This document shows, one piece after another, positions 6,594 to 64,000 of a DNA stretch of 64,000 bases. Position 1 is the first letter of the stretch. The number at the start of each line of letters is the position of its first letter. The position numbers and the translations under genes were made by a program. A model generated the notes under the pieces. It worked only from the letters and a program-made list of their open reading frames with translations, was not told the DNA's origin and ran no database searches. Origin of the DNA: Marsupella aquatica (Eukaryota; Plantae; Marchantiophyta); the NCBI GenBank assembly GCA_973895155.1, contig OZ316893.1, forward strand, positions 16,460,645 to 16,524,644, in the 5' to 3' direction.

Positions 6594-7665
6594 CGGCGGA
6601 GTAGGAATAGATTAGGATTAGGACTAGCTTAGTCAGGCTCTTGGGATAGGCACCTGCCTTAGGTACAGCATCGCTGCCATGCTGTCCAGCCTGCGTAGAT
6701 TAGGATCTTCTAATAAGACACAGCCGTTTCCGGCCTGACTATCAGCTTAGTTAGGACCTTAGTCAGTGAATCTTCGGCGAGAGGACACCCCGTCCCTCGG
6801 CCCTTAGTATTTAGTGCACCCCTTGGTAGAGGCAGGGGTGGGTTTTAGTTGCAGAGTTGGGCGTCCGCGGTATGTGCGGGGAGTCCCGACCTCTGGGAAT
6901 GAAAGAGTACCAAGGGGAGGGGGTAGGACTAAGCTCGCCGGGTGAGTGTGGAGCCGGGCTCCATTGTAGTGTGCACCCTCAGCCTTGAACCTGTTCATTC
7001 CGGGGCTGTCGGGTCAACTAAGTGTACGCATATGTTCTCTTTGTAATAAAATCCTTTCCCATCATTTTCCTTTGTGTAAATCGAGATTGTATGCATGTGC
7101 GCGTGTATGTGTGTGGGTTTCTCGTATATGGGTGGCAGCGCCAGGCCGAACGCACTACCCAAGACGTGCACAGGGTGCAGCCTGCGGGTAAGTGGTTGCG
7201 AGCACGGGTTGAGGACCTGTATCATCGAATCCGAATCAAAGGCGGACAGCACGAAGGCTTAGAAGCCCTTAAGCCGGGGTCGATCCTGCTATCGACTAAG
7301 GTACGTTCTGACGGCGGAACACAAACCATACCTAGGAGGTGTCCGTATTTAGCAATATGCGCACTTAGCGCTAGTTTACGAGAATAAGGTGCATTACGTG
7401 TAATAGCTGTCTAAATTAGAAACTTAGAAATAATGAAAAACTTTTAAAAATTTTGTAGTTAGAAATAGATTAAACATAGCCAATTAATCTACTTTTAGAT
7501 ATAAGTAAGGTTAAGACTTAAGTTAGTCGGATTAATGGATAATATCCTGAGTAATTAGGTAGGGGTGAGACGAGCCAGAAGAAACTACTATCGATGTTCT
7601 CGAAGCACGGAAGGAAGATTGGTGCTGCCGCGTTTGACTGTGAGTTACACAGAGCGTATCGGTGT

Positions 7666-7753
7666 AAAGGCGCAACGGCGCTTTGGAGCAAAAGTGCAAC
7701 GACGTATTGGCAGAAAAGCGCAACAGCGCAATGGAGCAAAGGCGCAACAGCGG
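7666..7753 (+). repeat. 24-bp-period tandem repeat (AAAGGCGCAACGGCGC-like) x4; the motif recurs at 10625-10676 and ~50320
   Basis: aaaggcgcaacggcgc / aaaagtgcaacgacgt / aaaagcgcaacagcgc / aaaggcgcaacagcgg. Confidence 0.7.
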
Positions 7754-7814
7754 ATCACTTGGCATTGCTCTCTTCGGATCGATAGTTGGCGACAACGCCT
7801 TGTTTCTTGTTGCT

Positions 7815-10435: not shown

Positions 10436-12025
10436 TTCTCCTACAACAATAGTTAAGATCAGTCAATCTCTGCAATTTTAGTTAAATAGCTCAAGTAGTT
10501 AGAAAAGTCCCATACTTTTCCAGGAGGTAGTCCTTATGTAGCAGACCCTCCCCTGAAAGTATCGACTTAAACCGACATGTAGTTTAGAATATATGGCATT
10601 TTTAGTTTTGCTTAAGCGTAATTGCGCAAAGGCGCAACGGCGCTAGTGCTCCAAAGCGCAAAGGCGCAACGGCGCCTCCAACACTTAGAAAATTTTCCGG
10701 AAGAGTATATTTTATATCCGACAGCACTTTTCACCGATTTTATTAAGGCACTTAGACACCTCATAAAAGTCTAAAATTTTGCCAGCATGTAGCATGTATA
10801 TAAATCTTCCACCTAGGAAAGTTTCACCCCATTTTGACTTTTATGTTAGAAATTAAAATTCAGATAAACTCACTATTTATTAGTTTTACCACAAAAGTGC
10901 AAAAAACACTTTTACTCCAGTTTACACTAGGGATAACTTTTGGTTAGTTTTTCATTCCAACAACATTCTAGTGAACCTTGAGTACTCTTATAGCATATTT
11001 TCATACTTTTTACTTTAGTTTATGACCCTTAAGATATGAAAGGGCATGTCCTTTCATTATCTCTTTTCCCCTTTAGTTCCTGCCACCCTATATGTAGTTG
11101 AATTTATGTCACTTTTAGTGTGAAGAAATTTCATGAGCGCTCAGTTGCAAGATTGCAACTTTGTTACCTCCATTTGTAGCAAGCACTCCATTGCATATGA
11201 GTACTTAATACAAAGAAATTCTTTCCCCTTCAAGTCTAAAGGAATGAGAAGTTTGGACCCTTGAAGTAAAATTATTGTGATTGTTAAATCTTTTGAGTAT
11301 GTGGAAATAGATTCCTTGCTGGTGATGTTTCACATATTCCTTAGTTCTTGATGCATAGTTTTTGACGTGACATTGCTTGTGCACGGGATGTAAAGATTGT
11401 TACTTATCAATTACTTATGGCTTCAAATTTGATCATGATGGTGTCTCTTATTTGTGACACAAAGTACCGATTGGATACAGAAGTGATTGATTACTAGTCT
11501 CCACTCAGTACCTTGGAAGGAAAAGTTGAGACATGTTGACGGCATTTTAGTAATCATCCTAGTACCGTAATCCTTTCTAGAAATGTTCTTGCAGATATAC
11601 CACCTAAATCATATCAAATGAAGTTATGTTGAGGAGTCACCTTGGTTGTTTCCTAACTCCCTCACCATACCTCAAGATTTTCATTGTGTTTTATTAATTG
11701 TTTCCATTTGTTAATTTTATTTACAATGTCAAGCAGACATTTAAAACTATGCCTTGCTGAGCAACCATAGTAAAAGGCTCAACCTTTGTGTTTCTGTTAC
11801 CTTATTCATTCATAAGTGCTAAATCATAGAAAATCATTCCTTACATGTTCTTCCATGGGAACGAATACCGAGTTTTGGATCTTAAATGTTTATTTCTGTC
11901 CTTAGTGTGATACTACATTACGTGCTTCCCTTCCTGCCCGAACCCTCAGATTTACGAGGGATGTGCCCGTCTAAGCTGAAGTCTGAGTTAAGGCCGCAGC
12001 CGATGACGTGACATAGCCTTTGTTT

Positions 12026-43039: not shown

Positions 43040-43900
43040 ATTGTTTCCCAGATATAGGAATGATCGACTCTATCAAAAGCCTTTTCAAAATTCAGTTTCA
43101 GAAAAAGCAAAGGAGTCCGAGTGCAGTGGATCCAGCCATTGGTAAGCCAGGTGAGTGAGATGTTTTTGAGAATGTGTCTGCCGGGTATGAATCCAGTCTG
43201 CTGGGGACTGATCAGCTTGGGCAGGAGCAGTTTCAAACATAGGGCCACCAATTTGGCCAGAAGCTTGTAAGTGATAGTTAGCATGGTTAATGCTCTCCAA
43301 TCGCCCAATCGACGCTTATCAGTTTTCTTTGGTATCAAGCGAATGACACCTTCCTTGATGCAAAAGGCCAGATTTCCAGTTCTCCAGAAATTGCAAATCA
43401 TTGCATGAAAATCAGTTTGTAAGAAATGCCAACATGCCCTGCAAACCTCAGCCGTCATCCCGTCCATGCCAGGAGCTTTGTCATTGGGGAGCAGCATCAA
43501 AGTCTCCTGTAGTTCATGAGTAGATGGAAGTTCTTCCAACATCCTTATCTCAGTGGCCGAGGGGGCAAAGTGGGTGGCTCCGGTCAGCACTCTTCGTGCA
43601 GCAAGTCGCTTCCTGAGGGCCACAGCATCCAAATCAGGGGGCAAGTATAGCTTCTTGCAAAATGTCTGTACTTCCTAAACAATCAATTTCTCATCGCGTA
43701 TTTTGCTTCCTCCTTCAGCAACAAGGTATTCCATTTTTTCCCTCTATCTCTTAGCTTTCACAGTAGCAAAGTAGAACTTGGAAGGTTTGTCCCCTTGCCC
43801 CAGCCATTTAATTCTAGAGAGTCTACGGCAATGATGAGCTTCTTCTAGCTCAAAACCCCTAACATTGCTCTCCGTGCTGGTAAAATCCTTTATGTTGTTA

Positions 43901-45031
43901 GTGGCCTCCACTTTAGTATGCTGTACACCCAATCATCCTGGGTATATAGTGTGGCCCAAATACTCAATCTGGTCTTGGAAGAACTTACACTTGCTAAGAT
44001 GGAGCTTCAACCCATGTGCTCTCAATCTCGCCAACATAGTCTGCAAGTGCTGTCGATGTTCTTCCACAGTAGAAGAATAGACCAAAATATCATCAATATA
44101 ACATCTGACAAAATCCAAACGTGCAAGGATTTGATCCATGACTCTTTGGAACTCAGCTGGTGCATTCTTCAACCCAAATGGTAAGAACAACCACTGATAC
44201 AAACAATCTTTGCCATAAGAATCAATCCCCCAAAATGTTGTCTTGGACCTGTCAGCGGGTATAGCGACGGAGATAGGAAACAGGTAAACAGGAAATGTTT
44301 TTTCTATTTTTAATATGCTGTTACCAGGAAAAAATCACTGTTACCAGGAAAAATGACAATTTAAAAATGTCTCCTAAAACATATTATTTAAAAAAAAAAT
44401 TAACAATGCAACATTTTTGGCTAGCTTTGGGCGCTACTATTAGCAGCGCCGGGCGCTAGCAAATAAAACTGGTCAACCAAAAAAAAAAACTTTTTTTTTC
44501 TCAAAAAAATAAATAAATAAAAAAATTCCACCCATTTTCCTGTTACCAGTTTTTTTTCCTGTTACCAGTTTCTGTTATTAAATCATGTTTCCTGTTTGTT
44601 GTCTTTTGTAAACACCTCCTGTCAGCATGCCTAATTGGAAGCTGATGGTACCCTGCCCTCAGATCCAATGAACTGAAAACCTTTGAATGCCCCATTACAT
44701 CAAAGATCTCCTCAGGTGTGGGCATGGCATATCAATCAGATTTTGTCTGGCGATTAATAGGTCTGTAATCACCACACATGCGTCTATCTGTGTGATTGTC
44801 ATGCACATCTTTCTTGGCTGGCATTACTGTGACATACTCCTCATATGAAATCTCCACCACTCCAGCCTCCAACAAATCTTGAGTTTTGCTTTGAATCAGA
44901 GCTCTCTCCATGTCACTATAACGGTATGGTCTATGAAAGATTGGTGCATCACTAGCCAATTCAATCTGAATACCAGGGCCCTTCAATGTCTCCAAATCCT
45001 TCATGTTGAATGCAAAACAATTGTCAAACAC
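43901..45031 (-). pseudogene. Ty3/Gypsy RT fragment, interrupted by a MITE-like insertion
   Basis: RMCGDYRPIN, LDLRAGYHQLPIRHADR|SKT, LPFGLKNAPAEFQ, YIDDILVYS, YLGH. Confidence 0.88.
44257..44618. mobile_element. 362-bp non-autonomous relative of the 52231-61400 element
   Basis: TSD CTGTCAGC at 44249-44256 and 44619-44626 (extendable to 9 bp). Left end GGGTATAG; both ends align with the large element. Two degenerate TAGCGCC-N-GGCGCTA motifs at 44422 and 44444. Confidence 0.85.
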
Positions 45032-45032
45032 T

Positions 45033-48000
45033 TGTCAAGGAGCTTAAGGGACTTTTCTCCTAAAAAACTACCTACTACCTGCTCCATGTCATACCAGGGT
45101 CACAAAGGATTGACAAAACTTCTGAAATGTGCTTACAATGTCTAATCACTCCATACATAAGTAGTTTCAACTCTCCACTTCTAGAGAGATAGTCCCCTTG
45201 ACTACTTTTTCACTCACACCCTTCCCCTCTCCTCTACTCCAAGGATCAGCAAGGGGGATCTCCATTCCAAGCTGTCACCTTAGAGTAGATTCTCACCCAA
45301 ACACCCAAGAACCCAAAGTATTTTCCTCTTCAAGCTTAAGTCTCCTCAAGACCCTCAAAGTAGTGTTACTCCTCAACCTTGCCCCCCTGGCGTTGGTTTG
45401 GGTCCACACATCCTCTTTGAGCTCTAGAGAACGCTCCTCTATCTAAGGACTCTTCCTCTTGTTCTCACTTCTTGTTAACACCACACACCAAGCAAAGTAC
45501 TTTCCACTCTCAAGCTATAATCCTTTCTAAGTCTCAAAGTAGTGCTCTACCTTAACCTTGCCTCCTTGGCCTTGGTTTTGTAATAGCACATCCCCTTTGA
45601 GCTTAGACCAAGATTACACCATAGCATGGACTCTTCTCTTGCTCTCATACACTTCAAATGCACTCACACTTAATGGTTACAATGAAGATTGAGAAGTATC
45701 ATTTTATTGTATCACCTTTACAACAAAAGTTCACTACACATTCTACACACTAAGCATGGACCACCTCTCCCTTCTCAAGCTTAGCCCTACCTTGGCAAGG
45801 TAGAGATTCCACTTAAGAGATGAGACTCACAGTCCCTAACAAATGAAAACTTATTTCTTATATACTATTCTCCTTCCACACCACACCAAGCTTGACCTGG
45901 GGTCCAACTACTCCTCCCCCAAGTCCTCCTAACACACAAAGTCCAACTCTATAGTTCGTAGCCCACCCTACAACCTATTGTTTGGCCTACTTCCAAGCCC
46001 TGGAATATGCCACCCATGAGTTGCATGCTTTGACCTCCAAACCTTCTCCTACTTATGGTCCTCCTCACCAGCTTTCCAACCCACTTGAAAGCTTGCAAAA
46101 AGAGTGAGTGAGTCTCAAGTTATGCTTAGTCAAAGTTGGCCTTATTTTACTTGTAACCCTTTTACTACCCTAAGTAAACTACCCCCTATATTTACTTTTC
46201 TTAACTTGATGGCCTTACACCTTTGACCAAAGGTAAGTACCCTTCCCTAGAGCCTAACTAAAGTGGTATGGATGCAAGAAAGGTCAGCCCCTAAATCTGG
46301 TATTCATTCCCCTATGCCAACTTTGGTTTGCAAGCCATCGGGACCCCCTTGTGGCCTCGGCTAAAAATATATTTGAGTGATTCTTTTTCTGGGTTTCCAC
46401 CTTCACCAAGGGGTGCCTTACCTTCCCCTAACTCAGCACAAAAAAATTTGGGCCCCAACATATACCCCTAGCCAAAGTTATGCCCATTCTCCCAAGGCCT
46501 ATTTTTGGTGTAAAGCGGGTGTAAGCAGCGACCCGATTATACTTACCTTATACGCCCCTTATGGAGATTCCAGGTGTCACCAGGGGAGAGTACTCTCATT
46601 ATACTCACGTTTCTTATGAAGAGTTTGATAAGGATATCAATTTTTGCAGCCATTTTCCTCTCTCTTGAATTCAATCTGAAACTGCATCATTCTCTGTTGG
46701 ATTCGAATGGCAGCAGGTCAATCTACAGCTCAACCAGGTTTGCAGCACCCTGCTCAGTCCACCTCCATAGCCATCCAGCCTTGCAAGTGATTCAAAATTG
46801 TAGCAGAATTTTGTAGCAGCCATAGCCCACCAATTCGTAGCTAGCCCTCTTAATTCCTTCCTTGCAACTGGTCCGTTTGCTACTACATTCAATCAATTTG
46901 CTAGCAGCCTAGCTCTATTCTCTAGCAGCCGGCCATAGCTCACCCTTCTCAACTTTGTAGCTAGCAGAGCAGCAACACTATTGAGCTTGCAGCATACTTA
47001 CTAATCAGCCAACACTCAACATCTCATGCTTGAAGCTAGCCCTTCTAATTCTGGTGCAGCAGTAAGTCTGATCAGCTGCCAGCCCTTCAATTTCATAGCC
47101 CACCATAGCTCATAGCCAGCCAGCTATCTCTTGATCAGCAGCAACCTATTTCTCCATAGCAAGCAGCTCTATTCCAATCAGCAGCATCAAGGCAGCCAGC
47201 CAATTCTGATCAGCATCCCATGCCTAAAGCTATAGCAGCTCAATTCAATTTCGTAGCTGCCTCTCGATCCCAATTCGAAGCAAGCATCTCATGTATTGAC
47301 CCTTATGGTGTTCCTGACCTCGTGCTTGAGTCGCCCTGGCCTCGTGCTTAAGTCGTGGTCGCCGCCGACGCGGTTGACACTTAGAAAAAATTTTGGATTT
47401 TTTTTGTTGGGAAAACAGTATTTCCAGGCCGTTTTGGACCGCCCCCAAAAAATCACACATGAGTCCAAAATGACTTTTGAGTAGATCTACAGATTCTCTA
47501 GACATATGACTATGTCATGGCTTACTAATATCTAAACAAAACCTTATAAAAGATTTTCTAAAATTAGATAAAGAGGGTTAATTATTATGTTTTCCAAAAT
47601 TCTTCTCAACTTTGAGATGCTCCCAAAAAGTAACCAAAAAGATAACCAAGTTTTACCACAAGTTTCCAGGGATAGAGTGGACTATATTTCACCCACTCCC
47701 AAACTTGGAACTCCTAAATTTACTCATCAGCTATTTTTCCCGGGACCCGCTATTTTGTTAATTTAAGTCGCACCAAAACACAAGGAAACCCTAGGTTGAG
47801 ACCCCACTTGACATCTAACTTTTTAGGGGTGCTCTAGGGACCTCCTAGCATCTATGGGAAAAATCTGAACCAAAACTAAGACTTCAAGTGTCGGGTTATT
47901 TTTTCTGCTCGGAATAGTCGCCTAGTCTAAATAAGGACGGAACGTTGTATGCCCCATCATAAAGACCTTTCTTATCCCTTGTCACTTGCTTACAACTCAG

Positions 48001-51582: not shown

Positions 51583-52230
51583 GTCATCAAGTTGACTGAG
51601 CACCACACCAATACAAAAACCAGACACATCCACATACACATGGAATTTTCTACTCCAATCAAGTGCTATCAAGATAGGAGCTTCAACCAACCTGTTCTTC
51701 AACTCCTGGAAACTTGCTAGCCTCTCAACTGAGGGTTCGACCTCAGCCCCGTTCTTAAGCATGCTGGTTAGGGGTAAAGCTACTTTAGCAAAGTCCTTAA
51801 TGAACCTTCTATAGTAGTTTAACATCCCAAGAATCCCCTCAACTCTGTTACTGAAGTTGGAAATTGGACAGCCATCCAAACAGCCACCTTTTCTTGATCC
51901 ACCTCGATGCCTTTCTTGGATACCTTGTGACCAAGTAGTATCCCTTCTTCCACACCAAAGAAGCACTTCCCTGGGTGAGCTTCAAACCAACTTTCCTACA
52001 TCTTTGGAAGGTCATCCTCAAATGTTCAACATGGTCCTTCCTCCTTCCAAAAACAGCAAAGTCATCTATGAATACTTCCAAGAACTTTCTCAAGTAGTCA
52101 TGAAAGATATTCATCATCAACCTTTGGAACATACCAGGGGCATTACAAAGACCAAAAGGCATCCTCCGAAAGGCATAAATCCCCCACTCAGTAGTAAAGG
52201 CTGTCTTCAACTGGTCCTCCTTCCTTATCC
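51583..52230 (-). pseudogene. RT/RNase H segment of element D
   Basis: KTAFTTEWG, MPFGLCNAP, FIDD, YYRRFIKDFA, VDVSG. Confidence 0.9.
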
Positions 52231-52269
52231 GGGTATAACCACCATGCTAGCAAACAGTAAATAGATATT

Positions 52270-52402
52270 CTCATACGAGCCAATTTTTTCTCGTACGAGT
52301 AAACAAGTTCCTCGTATGAGCATATCTATTTACTCGTACGAGTTTCTGTTTTCTTGTATGAGTTTCTGTTTTCTTGTATGAGTATTTTTTTTTCTTGTAT
52401 GC
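52270..52402. repeat. Subterminal array of the 10-bp palindrome CTCGTACGAG (~7 copies, 20-22-bp period, CpG-decayed)
   Basis: ctcatacgag, ctcgtacgag, ctcgtatgag, ctcgtacgag, cttgtatgag x2, cttgtatg. Confidence 0.8.
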
Positions 52403-52602
52403 ATTTTAGTTTCTTCTCTTCAGGGTATAGCGTCCATATATGCAATAATTGTGCGGACAATATTATGGTGGGTCCCACCATTGTACAACATCAGAGGAAA
52501 TTTCTTGACGATTTCACGCAAGGACTCCAATATATTGCCACAAAATATGAAGTCAAAACAAAGTCATACAATACTAGCGCCCTAGAGCAGTGTATAACTC
52601 AC

Positions 52603-54590
52603 CAGTCTTATGAAGTTCCCCCATTGTCTCCATCAGACAACCCACCAAGACAGCCACCCTTGCAGCATCCAAAGTTTGCCTGAGTGACAATTGCCAGACC
52701 TCCACCAGTCATCGATTTCCCTCGAGATTCGATATGCTTTCAAGAAAGTTGGTGCGTTCCGAAGACGATCCCACATCTCCTTGTGCTCTCCGTGCTTTCC
52801 ATCTTTCACACCTTCTTGGGAATGATGATGAAAAGATTGGAAAAATGAAAGGCATCTGATCTTTCTCGCTCTGGGTCGGGTACACCGTCAAAGAACACGT
52901 TTTGAACAATATTCCAACCAGCCTAAGCATTGTCCGCCATGAATCCCCAAATTGTAACATCCTGTAAACCATTTTCATCGGCAACCTCTAGCATCAAACG
53001 CCAAGCTCTCTCCAGAGATTTTGCATCTTCGGCCTTTAGCTCACAAGTGAATATGGTGCAAAGTGCCCGGTAATGATGATCATATACATGGGCACTGAAA
53101 GTAAGCCAATCTGCCGTGCTTCGATGCATCACGTCAAAACTTACCCATGAACCCTCTAACGACCCACCAGGTTTCATTCTTTGGAGCAGGTCCAGACCAC
53201 TCCCATCACCTTTTACGGTCATTTTAAAGATATGAGCACTCTCGTCCCGGCAGCCTTGACCAGGGAGCAAGAACCTATGAAGAAAAGGCAATCGGATACA
53301 CTTTTGCATCCTCACAAGAAATTCCAGTTCCCCTTTCCCCTTCTGATCTTGACGGACACTCCTTAACACGGATGCAAACTTCTGAGGAGATGCCATGACC
53401 ATCAGGGACTCCCAAATTTCCTTCTCTTCTTCGAGAGAGATTTCTTCAACAGAGGCCTCGCAAAATGTATTCGTCAGTGTCTCAATCGCAGAGTTTTTTA
53501 TCCCTGCTGGGGATGCCATGGGGTTTGCAATGAATCCCTTCTCCAGATGAGACCTTGCAACCTTTTTTGCCTCCCTCAAAAAGACCCGTCGACTGGGATG
53601 ATTGTGAAATCCCATATGAATAGCTAGTCGCGACATGTGGGCCAAAGACTTAACGTCAACTTTTGCACATGGATACATGTAGAACATTAGAGCAGGGCAG
53701 GCCTCAACACACATCGGAGGTTCGGAGCAATGGTGACAAACAACTCTACCTTCGGAGATCAACTCCCCAACTCGGAATGGGCCCAAAAGTTCTGGGGTTC
53801 TTGCCCACATCTCATTATTTTGAAACTTGTTGTCTTTCCACCACGGACAAGCATTATTTTGACACTGCAGCGATCCCGTACACTGGACTTTCCTGAAATC
53901 CCACATTTTCTTCGGAAGAACATTTGAAGACGTTTTCACAATCCGAGTCCAATAATAACAATCCTTACCACGATCCATATCTTTCAAACGTTCACCTTTT
54001 GCGTTCACACAGTCTACCGGGGGTAACTCAAAAACCACATTCCCATTGTAAGATGTGGGAAGACTAGGCACTACGTGATGAACAAAATCACTCCCCCTTA
54101 TAAATCGAGACAATTCACTATGACCTTTGGATTTCAAGATTGTATCCATTGCACTTTGCCGGTACGCAGTCAAAGGCACAATCTTTTCTCGATCCGCATT
54201 AGACTCCTTTTTAACCTCGGATGGGTAAACTGGAATCTTCTCTCTGAGAGTAGTTGTCGCTTGCTTATCATCTCCAGAACTTTCCGAGAGTTCGATGACA
54301 TCGAGTTCAGCCGCTATGGGAGGACGAGTACAGGAGGCCCCAGAATCTCTCAAAACAAAAACCTCATATTCTTTGTGAGCCTCCAGAGTCCAATATCTTT
54401 GATCATAGAAAATTGGAGTCTCCCCCAAACAAACCGATACTAACGATATTGCTAAAATAGACTCCTTGGCGACATCAAATCTCACTCCCAAATATTCCTC
54501 TAAAACACGCTTTGATTCAGATGATTCGAGGACGGGAATTGTGATTACATCCCGAGTGTCCTTTCTCGTGACAACGATATTTTGAGCCAT
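52603..54590 (-). pseudogene. MULE-type transposase with WRKY/GCM-like Zn module; 3' part decayed
   Basis: 555-aa ORF with CTGSLQC...C..C...C...C...HMGFHNH, then FDVMHR (D1) and GFMADNA (D2). Past the stop it reads AGWN...SDAFH (CxxH position) and a W-rich WLSWW segment ending at a GTGAG donor at 52602. The catalytic E and SWIM domain were not seen. Confidence 0.72.
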
Positions 54591-54765
54591 GGCTTCAAAC
54601 GAGGGATATGCCTTTGCCCCGCGCGAAATGAAATATGTTTATTATGAGATTCAAGTACGAGAAGTAAACGTTTCATTCTCACTATAGAGTCGTTATAGAT
54701 TTGGACGCACTCCATCAATGACGTTTTGTCGTCTTACCAACGACAGGATTTGGGTTCATAGTTAC

Positions 54766-54909
54766 TAGCGCCTGGCGCTACATCTAAGTGTAAAACACTC
54801 TTGGGTGAGGACTACGAATGCCAATAATAATAGCGCCTAGCGCTACCTCTGGGTGCAAACATTCTTGGGTGAGGAGTACGAAGACAATTAATAATAGCGC
54901 CTGGCGCTA
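54766..54909. repeat. ~64-bp tandem repeat upstream of the transposase, each unit starting with TAGCGCC-N-(G/A)GCGCTA
   Basis: Motifs at 54766, 54831 and 54895 with similar spacers (cttgggtgagga.tacgaa). Confidence 0.85.
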
Positions 54910-55312
54910 CCTATTTCAATGGACTTGAAAACATTCAATGGAAGGAAAAGTACGATAACGCGATACAGTACGAGTCATTAAGTTGACACGCTTGAAGATC
55001 TCCACTGGATCTTCTCGAATCCGATCCGCCCGGGTCCAAATGTGTCAGAAAGGAAGCATCTCCGAAAGTTCTCTCAGAGAGTCCTCTTCGAAGTGGGTAC
55101 CCGGGACCAAGTGCCAATTCTCCTTATATCTCATTGTTCTCATCCGATGTCCTCATTGTTGAGCCATTCTTCACTGAGTCGTAGTTGTGGCTCATCTTTT
55201 GAGCGCGTGGTTCTTGTTCTTGCTTTTGGGCCCAGTGGTTCTATTTCACTTTCGTGCGGGTTCTTGTTCTCGTTGTCGTCCTCGTTTTTCATTCTCATCC
55301 TAGTTTGCGCTC

Positions 55313-55786
55313 TTGTCCTCGTTCACATTCTTGTTTGCGCTTCTTGTTCTCGTCCTTGTCCTCACTTTCAATAGCACCTCACGAGGGAAGGCAAAGGAGG
55401 AGGCACTTGTCCCAAGCGACACCGACCGGGAGACCCCCACATCAAATAGCTTACCGCCTCGGCCGAATGCCGAGAGGATGACGGTTCCAATCTTGAAGAA
55501 GGGCAAACTCATCTCGAAGACGAAGAATGCCCCACCTGCGGGCCGCAATGAAGGATCCAGTCGGCCAAATCCGAGCGGCCCGACTTCTGTTCCCGCTAGG
55601 GATATCTCCCGCCGTCCCAGAGCTGACACTATCTGCACGGGTGTCTCTGAGCCTTCTTCATCCACTGAGAGTGATCGTTCTTTGAGCGGGGACTCATCAC
55701 CGAGCAGGCAAGGATTTGCGTGGTATGGATCGAGCGACTCAAATGACGACTCTGATGCGTACAAGCCAAGTTGGTGGGAAGACTAA
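55313..55786 (+). CDS. Possible low-complexity S/P/K-rich ORF inside the MULE-like element
   Basis: 157-aa ORF with a non-ATG start (KGKAKE..., ends DDSDAYKPSWWED). An equally long antisense ORF exists, so strand and reality are uncertain. Confidence 0.3.
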   Translation: MSSFTFLFALLVLVLVLTFNSTSRGKAKEEALVPSDTDRETPTSNSLPPRPNAERMTVPILKKGKLISKTKNAPPAGRNEGSSRPNPSGPTSVPARDISRRPRADTICTGVSEPSSSTESDRSLSGDSSPSRQGFAWYGSSDSNDDSDAYKPSWWED

Positions 55787-57085
55787 TTTCCCGTTGTCAG
55801 AGTGTATCGTTCGAGTGCTGGACAGACTTGGAGGATCCATCGAGGTTGATAGGATCTGTTTCCACTCATTTTTTCCGATAGAAAACGTATACTGTTCCTT
55901 CATCATATGCCGGATTTCTAGTGTACTGTAACATTTTGTATGTGAACGGCATAGCCGTTCATTTTTACCTCGATGTCAATGCTTTTGAATTCTAAATACC
56001 AAGCTTTAATTTCCGGTTCTACTCCTGTGCTTGCTTTGTATTTCTGAATGCGAGCCTGCTCAATTTCTTTGAAATTGTCGTAAACACTCGTTTGCTGTGA
56101 ATGTTTTTAGTAGCATTCGGCGCTATTATGAGAAACAAAGCGTCCTTAACAGTGTCGTGACATGTCTTATCTTTAAATTGTTTTGGATAGTGTTGGGCGC
56201 TATTAATTAAAGGAATCAAAAGTCAGACCCGTTAGGAGTTATTTTTTACTTTTATTCCAACAAATTCTGTTCAATTGATGTTTATTTTAATAGCGCCAGG
56301 CGCTATTGTAATTCATTGGAATATTCGTTGAATGAATGGGTGCATGTGGTCATGTTTGTTGTCATTGGACTCCAATTTCATCATTTATTTGAATACTAGC
56401 GCCGAGCGCTACTAAACTCGGCTTGTCGACACCCGCACAAAATTGGAAAATTTATAGACAGTAGTATTGATATTACTGCCCGTAGATACATGAAGACGGT
56501 TTTCCAGATACATTTGAAGGTATGTTTTATAATAGCGCCTGACGCTATCCACAACTACCGACACTGATGTGGTTCCAACGGTCACTTTCCAACAGTAATA
56601 TTACAGTAGATTGAGGTTCACGGAACCCTTTTTGATTTTTTCTGGGATGAAAGTCCAATTGGAGAATGCCATCTGTACTTGGGACCATTGTAATCGAATG
56701 GCTGGGTCCATTGTATCGGTGTATTAATACAAGGTGGAGATCGCTCATTTGGGATAATTTAGTCCGTCTAAGCGCTCAGACCTCGGACTGTACGAGTTTG
56801 TCAAGTGCGTATGTGCATCCTTTATTGGTCCCATACATTTTGAGACGTGATCGTGACAAGAACTGCACGGCGCGTACGACAGTGCCGGGTGGTCGCGTCG
56901 CTCTCCACGGCAACTTTTGGCTGGGTGATATGGGAATGGGGGAGGCTGATGGTGGTCATTCTGAGTCCTCTCAGTCTTTGTTTGCTGGTTCAGTATACAC
57001 CCGTCACGTCACTCGATCGACCGCATCCCTGTCAACTTCCGAAGCTAAATCTGCACAGCCCTTCCCGAGGTCGAGGAGAGGGAGA

Positions 57086-60000
57086 ATGGACCCTAAGGAG
57101 GTCTCCATGGGTGAAGTCAGTGACATAGGCTTATCGATGGATGAGGTAATATCAAAGCACGCATTGTCGTTCGGGAAGGATTTTCAAGGATTCGATAAGG
57201 AGCCACCTCGAATTCCTCTTTGTAGATTGCTCCCCATGGAGGTTGTTCGAACCTTACAGAAAGAAAGTGCATCGATCGAGAAGTTGAAAGAATCATTCTG
57301 GGTCACCGGGTACAACTCGCGCATTGGGATGCCTTTCTACGTTTAGCCTGCGAATGCCAATGGGGTTCCTCAAATATGCACCAGCGAGATCCGGGACTCT
57401 TGGGATCCAATCTGGGTCGCAGAGAACAACAAGTTTGAGGAAGAGTGTGCTGCGGACCCAGCGTTCCATATTCTAAAAGATAAAATGTTTTGTGTGTTTG
57501 ACGGAAATCATCGATTGTACTCCTGGTCAATCGTCACCAGGGAGAATCCGGACAACTTGAAGTATCATCCTCGTGTGATTTGCGTCATTTTCAATGGTGA
57601 CAGAGGTTCGCTAGTTGAGCTCGAGGCGGCAATGCACACCGTGAACTAGTAAGTTCTATTCATTAACTGTTGTTACCCTTGTCATTCATTTTGGACCAAA
57701 CAACGAAAGTGTTCATTCCCCAGTTTTTGCTAGCGCCCGGCGCTACTAATTCCTTTTCATTGCATCCAGGCTTGGACAAGCAGTCGTCGAGCCTTCCTGG
57801 ATTCTTGACGCGGACAGAATTTTCCAAATTTTGTCGCGTGATCTTGATCACTATAAGCCACTCATCGACAACGCAAACATGGCAAAGTTTGAGGCGATCC
57901 GAAAGAAGACGAGAAAGGGGTCTTGGTTTACACATAAAATGCCACAGGATGCTCTCATCTACATTCTGTGTGTGGACAAAATCAAGTCTTACTCAAATCA
58001 ATTTAAGTCTGATATGGCTTTAGCCAAAGCTCAAGGGGCTCCTTGGTCAAAAGAGGAGAACACAAAGAGGCATGAGGCAATGATGAAGGAGGCGACCAAA
58101 GATTGGTCGATCAAAGTGACGAAGATCACCCCTTTACTTCATCCGGATTTTGGAGATTATTTGGGAACCTGTGCTGAGATGTATCCCGTAACTGATAAGA
58201 ACAAACAGGAGAAGGCCAGACACAGTTGTATGCACAATGGATCGAGCCAGGTTGTTTACTACTGTTTCATACCTGGATCCAAAATTGAGGTGCACCCTTC
58301 TAGTAGCCCACTGCACTCCCGAGATTCAGAAACAGTTTTTCCATCCTGCAAGTGTCAACGACGAGCTTGTGAAGCAGTGGTGCCATACATGGCATACTTG
58401 GAATTCTGTGGAGGGAATTGCAACTGGAATGCTTCACACTTCCTTCAAACAGATTTCTAACCGAATGTCGGCTGACTGTCTCACAAAATCTGGGTGTGAG
58501 TCAATGGAGGCCATGCTTAAGATCATTCTTGATGAATTCAAAAACTTTGGGGATCTTGTAAAGGCAAAATTCTTCAACAACTTGTGGCCTTCCAAATATG
58601 CGGACAAGGAAGATTACACAAAGCGGAACCGGAAGAGAGCCAAACGATATCTATACCGGTTTTACATGTGGATGGAGCTTAGATCTCCAGACACACTGTG
58701 GGCATACCCGGCTGCATTTCAGAAATGGGTGTCTATCGAAGAGGGAGACGCTCTTGCCAACCTGTATTCGATGTACCCAGCAGAGGGAAAGTTTCCACCA
58801 CGTTCATTGTCGGAGTGGGAGAGACTTCACTGTCCGTGGTACCTCGACACAGACAAATGGGATTTACCGTTCGACGAAGCTGAGAAGGATGCCTTCATGA
58901 AGTTGCAGAAGTCCCAGATCCCCGCCAATTACGTGTCTGCAATGAAGCAAGGTCTCCAGTCTGATGTTGACGAATCTGCATCTGAGTTACAGAAGAATTG
59001 TGAGTCTCTTGTCATGCACGTTGACCGAAGCCGTAACCCAAGAGCAAAGGCGAAGAATGAGTCAGCTGCACCAAGTGACTCCACAAGGTCCTTCAAGAAA
59101 AGTGAGTAGTCTAAGCGCTTTTTGGTTACTTGTTGGCGCTGCTTATGCAGGAGTTTCATTTGGAAATTCCTTTGATTAATAGCGCCTGGCGCTAGTCTGA
59201 AAGGTTGGACTCATGCAAGTTTTTGTGCCTAACAGGAGGTCGAAAGTCCGACACGGAGGTCCCGGCTGCCGAAGGGAAGAATGATGCAACTCCTCAGGCA
59301 TCGGAGGCAAACACTGGAGCTCAAGAAACCCCGGATCAAGGGACCCCGGATGGTGCTGGCAAATCCATTGTCCCTGTTGACGCAACTAGCACGAAGAAAA
59401 AGAAAAAGAGAGGCACCGGTGAAGACAGAGGAGCATCATCTACTCGAGACGTTATTTCATGTGGACTCTAGAGAGATGTCGGAAATTTTAAGCGAAGGTG
59501 TTCTAGACACTGTTTTGTGGAGTCCAATTTAAATGAATTTTACGATTTGGTATTTAACAAGGGGATGAAGCCCATGTGGGTTACTAAAGTTGAGGCCTGG
59601 GGAAAGGAATTGGTAAAGTCAGGAGACAGAGAGAAGGGAGTAATGCATGGCGGAAAAGAGAGGGGCTTTGGTGTGGATGCTGGTTTCATCTACATTCCCA
59701 CTGGATTAAAACCAACACTTCTTGATCGGAAGGTTCCCAAGTGGAACCTTCAGGATTACACTATTCCCAGCTCTTTCTTTCGAGCCATGGAACCGTTCCT
59801 GGCAGACGATGGCCTACTTGCAATTTTACACAGAGGAGACTATGATCAGGTATCTGAAGTGATTGCGGCTTGCCAGGATTCAAAGTGTTTCCAGTGTATT
59901 TCAACCCACCATGTGGTCATGACTACACCAATGTATAGGCCCCGATCTGATACTCAGGTAACAATTCCTCTTGCACATACTAGCGCCCGACGCTACTATC

Positions 60001-60689
60001 AGCATTCGCTATATCTACAATTCACTTATCTTTCGTAAGGATGAAGGGTTGACTAGCGCCAAGCGCTAATATATGTGTCTGTTTTCTTATACTGCCTTCA
60101 TTGGGAAACTGTGTTGCAGATATTCACACTTACTCTTAATATATTTTGCCGCATTTTGACAAAGGGAAGGGTCCCGAAAGACCCCAAGTTCCGGCCACTA
60201 TCGAATGCAGAAGACCCTTCCGTCACTAACATTATTGGGTTTTCATTGCCGTGACATGACCCGACTCCTGAGCTCCAATTTGTAGGAAATTCACGCTTGC
60301 CTGTGGGTTTCATGCAAACTATTTTGGAATTGGTGACTCTTCCTGGAGATATCGTTATGGACTGGACAGTAGGTTCCGGTAGTACGTTTGTGGCTGGAAA
60401 TTATTCTGGTCGCTTTGTTGTTGGGCTGGAAAATTGGCCAGAGTTTGTTGATACTTCCGGTAAGGTCTTCCTCGATCTTTTACAGAACAAAGAAGTGGTT
60501 GCACCAACTCCTCCTAAGAAGATTCCTGGAAGTAAGAAGCAGGACAGGCTCCGTGTTGTTCTAAATTTTGATTCGGAAGACGAGGATGAGGGTGGCAATG
60601 CTTCTCAGCAATCTAAAGATGATGAGGTGTCGAAGAATGTGGTGGACCTTGGATCTGGAGATGAGGACAGTGAAGAGTCAGAAGAGTAA
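57086..60689 (+). pseudogene. ParB/Srx-like domain plus helical region plus beta-class N4C/N6A DNA-methyltransferase-like domain; introns 57649-57769, 59102-59235, 59958-60119
   Basis: IPLCRL..VR.L...L..SF...GY...FYV and VFDGNHRLYSW (57500-57514). Then VDAGFIYIPTG (motif IV position), FLADDGLLAIL, RLPVGFMQTILE (X), PGDIVMDWTVGSGST (I), GRFVVGLE (II). The three GT-AG introns preserve frame; several stops and one frameshift are present. Confidence 0.75.
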
Positions 60690-61400
60690 TTTTCTTTAGC
60701 TTTCTTTCTCTCATTGTATACTTTTTTCCAAAGAACTCCTATACTCCCTTTTGTCTAGAAAATTTGCCCGATTTCCCGACTTCGACTAAAGAACTCCAGT
60801 TCAAATTCTCAGGTCAGAGTGGAATCTTCGGAGGCGTTTTCAACTTCGAAGGAACGTCTCTAGGAACGTTGTACAGACCCCAGAGAAGCCATTTGTTCTC
60901 CCCTCTTATGCTGAAAAGGCGGCACAACGGGCAGATTCAGTCAGGACGCTTACTTGGGAGAGTAAGGGTCTTAGACTCAGGAGAGGCTCAGATAGAAAGT
61001 TTGTGCAGAATCACTTCGTAGATGATATTGCAAAATCCAAGTATGTGGACGACGAAGCAGAGTCCACTGATAGATCAGAAAGTAGCGGTTCTGAATCGGT
61101 CTCAGAGTCGAGTGGTGGTTGTGGAGAACGACGACACTAAATAAGAACGCAATTACGTGTCGTATTAGAGTAGCGCCCGACGCTATTACTGTAGCCGGTA
61201 GTTCAAAGAGGTTTTTATTCGGATGTTTTCCTTATAGCGCCCGGCGCTAGTATAAATGTACTCAATGGCCGCTTCAGGTCCAATATATGTGACAATATTT
61301 TCTTATCCTTCAGTGTCTTTTTTTGGGTGCACATTTGCTGGTATGAGTTTTGTTGTTTGTTGTTTGTTGTTTGCTATTTGATGTCACGGAGAGATCCCCC

Positions 61401-62231: not shown

Positions 62232-64000
62232 TGTAATAAAGTAGATTGGTTAGAAATGATAGAAAATTTATAAATTTTGAACTTTTTCTAACTCAAAAGC
62301 GCAGTATAGTTACCTTTTGTAGCAATTTAGATCAACTGAACACTTTACCTAATGCTATCCTTCATTGGAGGCTATTGTATTGGACAAGGATCGATAATAT
62401 AAATCCTTGCTCTTTACATGCTACCAAAAAAGAAGATTGGACATCATTGGAGAAGCAATGCAGGCTAGAAGATTCAAGAACCGGACTCCAAAACACTTCT
62501 TCAACAAGAATGAGCTCTGTATATAATTATCACAATCAGCCAATCTCTGCTATTTTAGTTAAATAGTTCTCACGGTCAGAAAAGTCTCATACTTTTTCAG
62601 GAGGTAGTAGTTGCATAGTAGAATCATCCCTTAAAGTTTCATCTCAAACCGACATGTGGTTTGAAAGTTAAAATTATTTTAGTTTAGCTATTTTTTGCAT
62701 AGCCACGACTTCGCCGACGCTTTGAGAAGCGTCCCTTGTATTTTTGGACGCTTTGAAAAGCGTCCACCCAAGACCACGACGCTTTGAGAAGCGTCCACAT
62801 GAGAAGCGACGCTTTCGGAAGTGTCCACCAAGTTTCGACGCTTTCTGAAGCATCCGCCACTCCAAAGGCGACATCGACACTGACGCTGACTGAAGCGTCG
62901 CACCCGAAGCCCAGAAGCCAGATGCTGCGACCAAAACCTCGAAATTCAGCCGACGCTTTCTGAAGCGTCCACAAAAGTCCTTTGTAGTTTTGGACGCTTT
63001 CTGAAGCGTCCACTATGTTCTCGACACTTAGAAATATTTTCATTTTTCGCACTTTTATAACACCACGCTGCTTTTATCGATTTATTTGAGGCACTTAGAG
63101 ATCTCAGAAAAGTCTGAAACTTTGTCAGCATAGAGATTATATGTAGTAGAGTACCCTTAGTTTAGAAGTTAAAATTAGATTAAGATCACTGTTTATTAAT
63201 TTTACTACAAACACCGACGCTTTGCAAAGCGTTCGCTCAAACCTCGACGCTTTGAGAAGCGTCCCCTACATTTTTGACACTTTCAGCAGTGTCCATTCAC
63301 TTTTCAAGGATGACCGTCATTAAGTTTATTCAAGACCCTTTAGATATGAAAGGGCATGTCCTTTTAGTCTCTCAGTCTCCTTGCGTTCCAGCTAGCCTAT
63401 ATGAAGTAGAATTTGTGTCATTTTCAAGTGTGAAGAAATAAAGTAGTGCCTGTGACATGTGCTGCAACATTGGAATCACCTTTGCAAAGCTTTCGTGTGT
63501 TTTCGTGTGGTATGGAGCTTGCAAATGCAAAGGAATTCTTCTCCCTTCCTTGGTCTGAATGATTGAGAGTTTAGATCATTGAAGTAAAATTATTTGTATG
63601 GAGTTGAATCTCAGAAGTATGAGGGAATAGATTCCTTAAGTGGTGACAACCCATCTTCTTGAGTTCTTGATGCATAGTTTTTGGCATGACATTGCTTGTG
63701 CACGGATGCAAAGATTGTTACTCACCAATTACCTGTGACTTCAATTTGATCATGATGGTGTTTATTATTCGTGACTCAGAGTACCGACTGGATATCGAAG
63801 TGATTGATTACTAGTTTCTTCTAAGTACCTTTGGAAGGAAAAGTTGAGACGTGTTGACGGCATTTTAGTAATCATCCTAGTATAGTAATCCCTTCCAGAA
63901 ATGTTCTTACGGATTTACCACCCAAATCACATCAAATAAAGTATTGATGAGAAGTTACCTTGGTGTTTTCCAGACTCCCTCATCATACCTCAAGATTTCA
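62232..64000 (+). mobile_element. LTR family B, diverged short form (B3), running off the window end
   Basis: Starts TGTAATAAAG. The first ~120 bp match 49828-49950 and the rest is colinear with B1/B2. Predicted TSD GTGTC. Confidence 0.85.
62716..63294. repeat. Array of ~11 18-bp palindromes GACGCTT-N4-AAGCGTC in LTR-B3
   Basis: gacgctttgagaagcgtc, gacgctttgaaaagcgtc, gacgctttctgaagcgtc and variants, irregularly spaced. Confidence 0.85.

What the first reader, a model, noticed from the sequence alone, without database searches (positions are those of the whole stretch)
44257..44618. Miniature non-autonomous partner keeps the asymmetric ends and the 15-bp palindrome
Seen: left end GGGTATAGCGACGGAGATAGGAAACAGGTAAACAG versus GGGTATAACCACCATGCTAGCAAACAG-TAAATAG in the large element. 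The right ends share GACA(A/T)CAAA(C/T)AG(G/C)AAACA at the same offset (nt 16-33). The TSD is 8 bp, and two degenerate palindromes sit in the centre (44422, 44444). The subterminal repeats differ (CTGTTACCAG). Inference: the ends plus the palindrome are the minimal cis-elements, so the motif is likely functional.
Basis: partly seen in the sequence, partly recalled or inferred. Interest (0 to 1): 0.7.

Follow-up and report, generated by a model that had tools for sequence, protein, structure and literature searches.

The report
Miniature transposon keeps parS-like palindrome
A 362-base jumping element, found at many sites in a plant that is probably a liverwort or other bryophyte, keeps a 15-base palindrome that is also scattered through the non-coding DNA of a larger relative, whose predicted ParB-methyltransferase protein likely lands on that palindrome, so the tiny element would make a compact test of whether such proteins mark their own transposons.

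Summary
44257-44618 is a 362-bp non-autonomous DNA transposon with an 8-bp target duplication. Public runs show empty sites and many flanks at exactly these ends. Its ends match the 9.2-kb element at 52231-61400 (left 23/40, right 22/40; p about 1e-4). All 16 window copies of TAGCGCC-N-GGCGCTA lie in these two elements. The large element has a broken, probably Mutator-type transposase. Opposite it lies one gene with a likely ParB-type domain and an N6/N4 DNA-methylase domain, the layout reported for algal transposons (Ectocarpus Sola1-1; red-algal PAG genes). Corrections: the miniature is a sister-family derivative, not a deletion of this element; the ends are degenerate inverted repeats; family-specific subterminal repeats are also cis-elements; some copies keep only one palindrome. 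For function: the palindrome block varies little among copies, and a 14-bp version sits in the same intron of a diverged family (L001). Against: it lies about as far from the right end as in the large element, so it may hitchhike. Binding is untested.

The parts
44257..44618 (+). 362-bp non-autonomous DNA transposon (miniature, multi-copy family)
   Evidence: TSD; mixed flanks at both exact ends and empty-site joints of 370 bases in public runs
44249..44256 (+). left 8-bp target-site duplication CTGTCAGC
   Evidence: covers codons A-D-R of the host Gypsy RT
44619..44626 (+). right 8-bp target-site duplication CTGTCAGC
44257..44296 (+). left end, degenerate terminal inverted repeat with AAACAG at nt 22-27
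   Evidence: 23/40 to the large element's left end; 0 of 32 positions in 44257-88 with a listed variant
44579..44618 (-). right end, degenerate terminal inverted repeat with AAACAG at nt 22-27
   Evidence: 22/40 to the large element's right end
44318..44347 (+). two left subterminal CTGTTACCAG repeats (44318, 44338), each followed by GAAAA; likely transposase-binding sites
   Evidence: role inferred
44540..44568 (+). two right subterminal CTGTTACCAG repeats (44540, 44559), each preceded by TTTTC
   Evidence: 0 of 49 positions in 44530-78 with a listed variant
44422..44436 (.). palindrome 1, degenerate left half (TAGCTTT-G-GGCGCTA); the degenerate form is shared across copies
   Evidence: no listed variant
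44444..44458 (.). palindrome 2 (CAGCGCC-G-GGCGCTA), absent from some copies
   Evidence: one listed variant, 44449 C>T; single-palindrome contig in X10 and joints from 44436
52231..61400 (+). 9,170-bp related element, itself defective, TSD CCTTATCC (52223-30, 61401-08)
52597..54590 (-). broken transposase exon, probably Mutator-type: ubiquitin-like, GCM-fold and RNase H-like parts; D(FDVMH), D(FMADNA), DAFH
   Evidence: stops and frameshift
57086..57648 (+). likely ParB-type N-terminal domain (DGNHR) of the accessory gene, one internal stop
   Evidence: Atlas 0.95; phrog_1033 E 0.034; no Pfam hit
59472..60500 (+). beta-class N6/N4 DNA-methyltransferase-like domain of the same gene, split by an intron, one internal stop
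   Evidence: PF01555 E 9.7e-08 on the SAM-binding half; PDB DpnA, CcrM, PvuII; N-half only weak Atlas leads, 0.80-0.84; in-frame GT-AG introns
54766..61249 (.). 14 copies of TAGCGCC-N-GGCGCTA in the large element (54766, 54831, 54895, 56111, 56188, 56291, 56397, 56533, 57731, 59180, 59981, 60054, 61171, 61235), all outside the coding stretches, four of them in three introns; one more degenerate copy at about 52575
43800..45100 (-). reverse-transcriptase region of the Ty3/Gypsy element that hosts the miniature
   Evidence: the reading frames on either side overlap by the TSD

Best explanation
The 362-bp element is a multi-copy non-autonomous cut-and-paste transposon, probably of the Mutator superfamily, likely moved in trans by the transposase of an unseen sister family of the 9.2-kb element, and its central palindrome is likely a landing site for that clade's predicted ParB-methyltransferase accessory protein. 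Shown: exact ends, 8-bp TSD, many insertion sites, end similarity, confinement of the palindrome to non-coding element DNA, low variation of the palindrome block among copies, and a related palindrome in the same intron of a diverged family. Inferred: the transposase reads the AAAYAG boxes and the family-specific CT[CG]NTAN[CG]AG subterminal repeats; the accessory protein dimer reads the clade-wide palindrome, as bacterial ParB reads parS (recalled), and marks or shields element chromatin; the miniature profits from this but may need only one imperfect site. My split: real non-autonomous element 0.95; Mutator rather than hAT 0.8; palindrome is a functional protein site in the clade 0.75; the binder is the ParB-like protein 0.55; the site is required for the miniature's own movement 0.25.
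For: Ends, TSD and copies. Motif: 16 of 16 hits (3-bp spacer, up to 2 mismatches in the hexamers) lie in the two elements (9,532 bp), 0 in the other 54,468 bp; 14 of 14 in the large element avoid 6,452 coding bases of 9,170 (p about 4e-8, coding intervals my own). Among copies: 1 of 60 positions in 44404-63 has a listed variant, against 27 of 115 in 44289-44403 (Fisher p 4e-5); none of the four CpGs in the palindromes has a listed variant, while the host flanks are CpG-depleted (o/e 0.12-0.36). L001 (transposase 64% identical over its best segment) has three TAG(C/T)GC-(C/T)G-GCGCTA 14-mers in the intron that starts after 'IRL', the same intron that holds a degenerate copy in the window; that intron shows no other similarity to the window. 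Accessory gene. Precedent: ParB-like plus N4/N6 methyltransferase gene opposite the transposase in Ectocarpus Sola1-1 (PMC12477816); ParB gene with adjacent inverted repeats in red-algal Plavaka elements (10.1101/2025.02.11.637652).
Against: The motifs sit about as far from the right end as in the large element, so they could be kept passively. 10 variant rows were hidden (19): with 3 of them in the block p becomes 0.004 against the left interior and 0.11 against all other scored positions; with all 10, 0.28 and 0.88. The left end and right subterminal block are as invariant as the palindrome block. Palindrome 1 is degenerate in the family, and some copies lack palindrome 2. The ParB call rests on an Atlas score and a weak PHROG hit; Pfam and PDB sequence searches did not find it, the single-sequence model failed (pLDDT 38), and no homologue of the accessory gene was found. 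No HTH domain was identified. The place where DPPY/SPPY would lie reads YIPT (placed by eye), so the methylase may be inactive. No autonomous element with the miniature's own subterminal repeats was seen. L001 is a single 2-kb contig and does not show whether that family has the accessory gene.
Confidence: 0.55

Rival explanations
1. Hitchhiking: the miniature arose by internal deletion of a sister-family element and kept about 160 bp of the left end and about 200 bp of the right end. The palindrome came along because these elements carry copies 150-215 bp from the right end. It may work in full-length elements but is not needed by the miniature.
For: Motif ends lie 160/182 bp from the right end in the miniature and 151/215 bp in the large element. 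Palindrome 1 is degenerate family-wide; palindrome 2 is missing in some copies. Hidden variant rows could erase the conservation signal.
Against: The spacer between motif and end cannot be aligned between the two elements, yet the motif persists. Only 1 of 60 positions in the block has a listed variant, against 27 of 115 just left of it. The one contig that reaches it in a third organism code (X10) keeps palindrome 1.
Confidence: 0.27
2. The palindrome is bound by the transposase itself through its GCM-fold domain, to pair ends or to switch on its own element, and has nothing to do with the ParB-like gene.
For: The transposase has a GCM-fold domain (1odh: Foldseek probability 1.00, E 5e-3; Z 6.3). 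In L001 the palindromes lie in the transposase intron. AtMu1 transposase alone binds and hypomethylates its own copies and non-autonomous BRODYAGA2 (bioRxiv 2026.08.24.746577 section 7).
Against: A separate set of subterminal repeats, different in the two families, fits the transposase better. The palindromes are spread over 6.5 kb of internal non-coding DNA and through the accessory gene's introns, unlike the terminal peaks reported for AtMu1.
Confidence: 0.13
3. The palindrome acts as an RNA or single-strand hairpin, or is bound by a host factor.
For: The two central copies fold into a stem (-12.5 and -14.9 kcal/mol for 76 nt, no shuffle control). 12 of 15 departures from consensus are C>T or G>A in the inner arms, which G-T wobble tolerates.
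Against: The same changes are what methyl-cytosine decay gives. The L001 form has no central base, which suits a duplex site better than a short hairpin. Copies also lie between genes and in a miniature with no sign of coding. No copy lies outside the elements in this window.
Confidence: 0.05

Closest known systems
Sola1-1_Ec32 accessory gene of Ectocarpus (PMC12477816; passages read)
   Same: One gene on the strand opposite the transposase, with a ParB-like domain and an N4-cytosine/N6-adenine methyltransferase domain, proposed to bind and modify its own transposon.
   Different: Sola-1 element of 21.5 kb in a brown alga; here a probably Mutator-type element of 9.2 kb in a probable bryophyte, with a defined palindrome in its introns and a miniature relative that keeps it. 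The passages read name no target motif or miniature derivative.
Plavaka accessory genes PAG2/PAG3 of red algae, also on Mutator and Zisupton elements (10.1101/2025.02.11.637652; passages read)
   Same: PF01555 methylase and ParB-like domains carried by DNA transposons, with inverted repeats suggested as ParB sites.
   Different: There ParB is fused to a 2OG oxygenase and the methylase to SET, in two genes, and the repeats form tandem arrays next to PAG3. Here ParB and methylase share one gene and the palindromes are dispersed singly.
VANDAL/VANC of Arabidopsis (PMC5735166; passages read)
   Same: MULE with degenerate ends, an accessory gene, and a short motif concentrated in introns and intergenic DNA; an unrelated element that carries the motifs also responds (AT9TSD1).
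   Different: VANC motifs are non-palindromic 8-9-mers in same-orientation tandem repeats; no VANC-type family was hit in the Pfam scan. VANC binding is shown experimentally; here nothing is.
AtMu1 and non-autonomous BRODYAGA2 (bioRxiv 10.64898/2026.08.24.746577; abstract and section 7 read)
   Same: Non-autonomous MULE relatives share protein-binding motifs with an autonomous family.
   Different: There the binder is the transposase at the termini and no accessory gene exists.

Membership tests
Mutator-like elements (MULE) | TSD of 8-11 bp | tested here: met
   8 bp in both elements; range from PMC6446971
Mutator-like elements (MULE) | DDE transposase with D..D..(C/D)xxH..E | tested here: met
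   FDVMH, FMADNA and DAFH in the window and homologues, CxFH in P0011/P0154/P0049, xAESVH in L001 and P0013; the window's large element lacks the E exon. The signature itself is recalled.
Mutator-like elements (MULE) | WRKY/GCM-type N-terminal and SWIM C-terminal zinc domains | tested here: inconclusive
   GCM fold at Z 6.3, rmsd 4.4, 138 aligned; Foldseek probability 1.00 but E 5e-3. One homologue is named SWIM-type. No Pfam family passed its cut-off in 28 of 28 homologues scanned.
Mutator-like elements (MULE) | long terminal inverted repeats (absent in non-TIR MULEs) | tested here: not met
   left/right identity only 16/40 (miniature) and 20/40 (large); fits the non-TIR or degenerate-TIR subgroup described
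Mutator-like elements (MULE) | transposase groups with MULEs in a phylogeny | not tested
   no reference MULE or hAT transposases were on hand
hAT superfamily | 8-bp TSD and RNase H core like Hermes | tested here: met
   8-bp TSD; Hermes 8edg at Z 5.0, rmsd 5.4, 105 aligned, a middling score
hAT superfamily | BED finger and hAT dimerisation domain (recalled) | tested here: inconclusive
   no such Pfam hit in the window ORF or 28 homologues; a GCM fold is predicted instead
ParB-methyltransferase transposon accessory proteins (Sola1-1_Ec32/PAG type) | PF01555-type methyltransferase domain | tested here: met
   E 9.7e-08, 32.7 bits against cut-off 26.7, on the SAM-binding half; PDB hits DpnA, CcrM, PvuII
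ParB-methyltransferase transposon accessory proteins (Sola1-1_Ec32/PAG type) | ParB-like N-terminal domain | tested here: inconclusive
   Atlas first hits 0.95, second cluster 11% ParB_N, 10 of 10 family hits in one clan; phrog_1033 E 0.034; Pfam and PDB negative; model unusable
ParB-methyltransferase transposon accessory proteins (Sola1-1_Ec32/PAG type) | both domains in one gene opposite the transposase | tested here: met
   three GT-AG introns (57649-769, 59102-235, 59958-60119) are each in phase; this copy also has stops and one apparent frameshift near 58200-58400; no transcript evidence
ParB-methyltransferase transposon accessory proteins (Sola1-1_Ec32/PAG type) | catalytic DPPY/SPPY motif | tested here: inconclusive
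   the candidate position reads YIPT, placed by eye; no homologues were found to check it
ParB-methyltransferase transposon accessory proteins (Sola1-1_Ec32/PAG type) | binds or modifies its own element | not testable with these tools
   only proposed in the passages read as well
VANDAL/VANC | motif enriched in non-coding element DNA | tested here: met
VANDAL/VANC | motifs in same-orientation tandem arrays | tested here: not met
   dispersed single palindromes with unrelated flanks
VANDAL/VANC | VANC-type protein | tested here: not met
   the accessory gene hits a DNA methylase, and no other Pfam family above cut-off

The most novel reading that the evidence does not exclude
A land-plant Mutator clade runs a bacterial-type parS/ParB system on its own DNA: a ParB-methyltransferase clamp loads at 14-15-bp palindromes and marks the element against silencing, and miniature elements parasitise this twice, borrowing the transposase through their ends and the epigenetic protection through one retained parS-like site.
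Probability: 0.3. Interest if true: 0.8.

Novelty: new variant of a known kind. Interest (0 to 1): 0.5.

Why it matters
[quoted passage not shown] This case gives a precise candidate site, a diverged family with a one-base-shorter site, and a 362-bp multi-copy element with natural one-site and two-site forms. That makes the proposal testable by binding assays and by methylome comparison among copies. It would extend the system to a land plant; liverworts include Marchantia, which uses a prokaryote-like 4mC methyltransferase in sperm. A miniature relative of a larger transposon is in itself ordinary.

Tried and rejected
No genome is held, so the genome-wide census could not be done; public contigs were the substitute. 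A pattern scan for the miniature's left end found 0 matches in JGI metagenomes. The transposase scan found 1 relative among 72 candidates there and 0 of 91 in viral contigs. Homologue searches with two accessory-gene pieces, limited to longer proteins, found none, which is weak evidence. PDB sequence searches with the ParB-like and N-half methylase pieces gave only chance-level hits (galectin, PurR). The single-sequence model of the ParB-like piece was unusable and was not searched. Foldseek gave no transposase match at E<=0.001 and VIA none at Z>=8. The Atlas did not complete for the transposase. No RNA holder listed. Contig depth drops from palindrome 1 to 2, but depth is not copy number and the drop adjoins a skipped repeat, so I drew no frequency from it. 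Rejected: 9-bp TSD; miniature as a deletion of the 52231-61400 element; decay of palindrome 1 in this copy only. Searches that showed no listing of a land-plant ParB-methylase transposon or of a miniature keeping such a site: (listings only, except papers named as read). The supplements of the Bostrychia preprint (closed) and the Ectocarpus paper (not opened) and Iyer et al. 2011 (seen only as a reference) could bear on novelty.

Full report
Observation. The element spans 44257-44618 (362 bp) between two copies of CTGTCAGC. It interrupts the reverse transcriptase of a Ty3/Gypsy element, whose frames on either side overlap by the duplicated bases. The large element spans 52231-61400 between two copies of CCTTATCC, also in a Gypsy RT. 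Over 40 ungapped bases the left ends match at 23 and the right ends at 22 positions; 9 and 16 of 127,922 window positions reach these values. Left against right gives 16/40 in the miniature and 20/40 in the large element, and all four ends have AAAYAG at nt 22-27. The ends are therefore degenerate inverted repeats with diverged outer bases. The palindromes at 44422 and 44444 are present.

It is a real multi-copy family. No genome was held. 14 public runs hold part of the region; I laid 6 of them. Joints that skip exactly 370 bases (element plus one TSD) occur in 3 of 4 runs. Contigs with unrelated flanks stop at 44257 (15 in X2, 11 in X4) and 44618 (12 and 9), which fixes both ends and the 8-bp TSD. 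A third organism code (X10) holds 11 matching contigs; X14 holds none.

Relation to the large element. blastn finds nothing shared but ends and motif; the best hit is 34 bp around palindrome 2 against the intron copy at 57731. Subterminal repeats share the form CT[CG]-N-TA-N-[CG]AG, but read CTGTTACCAG (4 copies) in the miniature and CTCRTAYGAG or close variants (7 copies) in the large element. The large element's transposase exon has a stop at 52923, a frameshift and a further stop, and the exon that carries xAESVH in L001 is missing. So the miniature descends from a sister family, and the large element cannot itself be the active helper.

Superfamily and host. The transposase has 307 homologues at E<=0.001 and no Pfam family. 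Of 20 homologues that I picked for look-up, 10 carry a species name, all liverworts (8 Riccia sorocarpa, 2 Calypogeia fissa). The closest ones are unnamed, so 'bryophyte, probably liverwort' is an inference. The model (pLDDT 81) has a ubiquitin-like part, a GCM-fold part (1odh, Z 6.3) and an RNase H-like part nearest Hermes (Z 5.0); these scores are middling. With D..D..(C/D)xxH..E, a homologue named SWIM-type and an 8-bp TSD (8-11 bp in MULEs, PMC6446971 passages), Mutator is likelier than hAT. That GCM/WRKY folds are tied to MULE transposases is recalled. No tree was built.

The palindrome. All 16 window hits of TAGCGC-N3-GCGCTA (up to 2 mismatches) lie in the two elements and none in the other 54,468 bp. 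The 14 in the large element all avoid coding stretches as I defined them; four lie in three GT-AG introns that join the accessory-gene frames in phase. L001, a metagenome contig with a transposase 64% identical over its best segment, has three 14-bp versions without the central base, in the intron that begins after 'IRL'. The window's element has a degenerate copy in that same intron, and the L001 intron otherwise does not align to the window. This is the best independent sign that the motif is maintained. Among miniature copies, 34 positions have listed variants: 27 of 115 in 44289-44403, 1 of 60 in the palindrome block (44449 C>T, 10-13% of depth), 0 of 32 at the left end, 0 of 49 in the right subterminal block, 5 of 40 at the right end, and 44464. 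Fisher p is 4e-5 against the left interior and 0.004 against all other scored positions. Ten rows were hidden; if 3 fell in the block these become 0.004 and 0.11, and if all 10 did, 0.28 and 0.88. 44473-44529 was not scored.

Results against a strict requirement. Palindrome 1 is degenerate across copies, not only here. One X10 contig continues from 44436 with the sequence that follows palindrome 2, so it has a single palindrome; joints from 44435-36 to 44554 or 44595 occur in all four runs. The motif ends lie 160 and 182 bp from the miniature's right end and 151 and 215 bp from the large element's, so a deletion derivative would inherit them without selection.

The likely binder. Opposite the transposase lies one intron-containing gene. 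Its 3' part hits PF01555 above cut-off and beta-class N6/N4 methylases in PDB, PHROGs and 255 phage records. Its 5' part has DGNHR and scores 0.95 to ParB_N-clan clusters in the Atlas, with only weak support elsewhere. No homologue was found, and the catalytic motif looks altered (YIPT, by eye). The same two-domain layout opposite a transposase is described for Ectocarpus Sola1-1 (PMC12477816 passages). Red-algal Plavaka, Mutator and Zisupton elements carry ParB and PF01555 genes, with inverted-repeat arrays beside the ParB gene in Plavaka (Bostrychia preprint passages). Both papers propose self-binding in the passages read; neither passage shows it. VANC proteins are the tested precedent for motifs in non-coding element DNA (PMC5735166 passages). 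AtMu1 shows that a transposase alone can play this part (abstract and section 7). PMC4738411 (passages) describes ParB-HTH-methylase fusions in chlorophytes and chytrids. Two earlier unchecked notes of this scan describe ParB-like genes with intronic palindromes in other genomes; I saw them after reaching this reading and do not count them as support.

Verdict. Observation confirmed; interpretation partly supported. The miniature is a non-autonomous, probably Mutator-type element of a sister family. The palindrome is probably a functional site of the clade, most likely for the ParB-methylase protein; whether the miniature needs it is open. The kind of system is in print for algae; my searches listed no land-plant case and no miniature that keeps the site. 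New variant of a known kind, interest 0.5.

Noticed in passing
44249-44256 and 52223-52230: Both elements sit in the RT of two different Gypsy families, in the same orientation and about 11 nt apart in homologous position (YHQLPIRHADR against YNQIWIRKED). Other copies have mixed flanks, so any preference is not exclusive; n = 2.
   Followed up: partly
L001 1077-1395: Transposase intron of a related family with three near-perfect palindromes TATTGC-TAG(C/T)GC(C/T)GGCGCTA-GCAATA, one base shorter at the centre than the window's motif.
   Followed up: yes
52240-52596: The large element lacks the transposase's second exon (catalytic E region) and so looks internally deleted near its left end. A second GGGTATAGCG, identical to the miniature's first 10 bases, lies at 52423.
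   Followed up: partly
62716-63299: Eight or more copies of another spaced palindrome, GACGCTTT-N-(A/G)AAGCGTC, in an LTR-like repeat (families D12 and D17).
   Followed up: no
7653-7759 and 10615-10673: Short tandem units around AAAGGCGCAACGGCGC (family D13).
   Followed up: no
55300-56106: Long open frames on both strands between the transposase and the accessory gene; may be a third gene or an upstream exon. No Pfam family above cut-off for the plus-strand frame; the minus-strand frame was not scanned.
   Followed up: no
44618 to 44430 in run X4: Two contig forms join the miniature's right end, through six other letters, to the middle of palindrome 1; possibly insertions next to a palindrome or tandem copies (table 5c). 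Unexplained.
   Followed up: no
52231-61400 against flanks: CpG observed/expected is 0.81 in the large element and 0.68 in the miniature (6 CpGs), against 0.05-0.36 in the host retroelements: younger age or protection from methylation, not separable here.
   Followed up: partly
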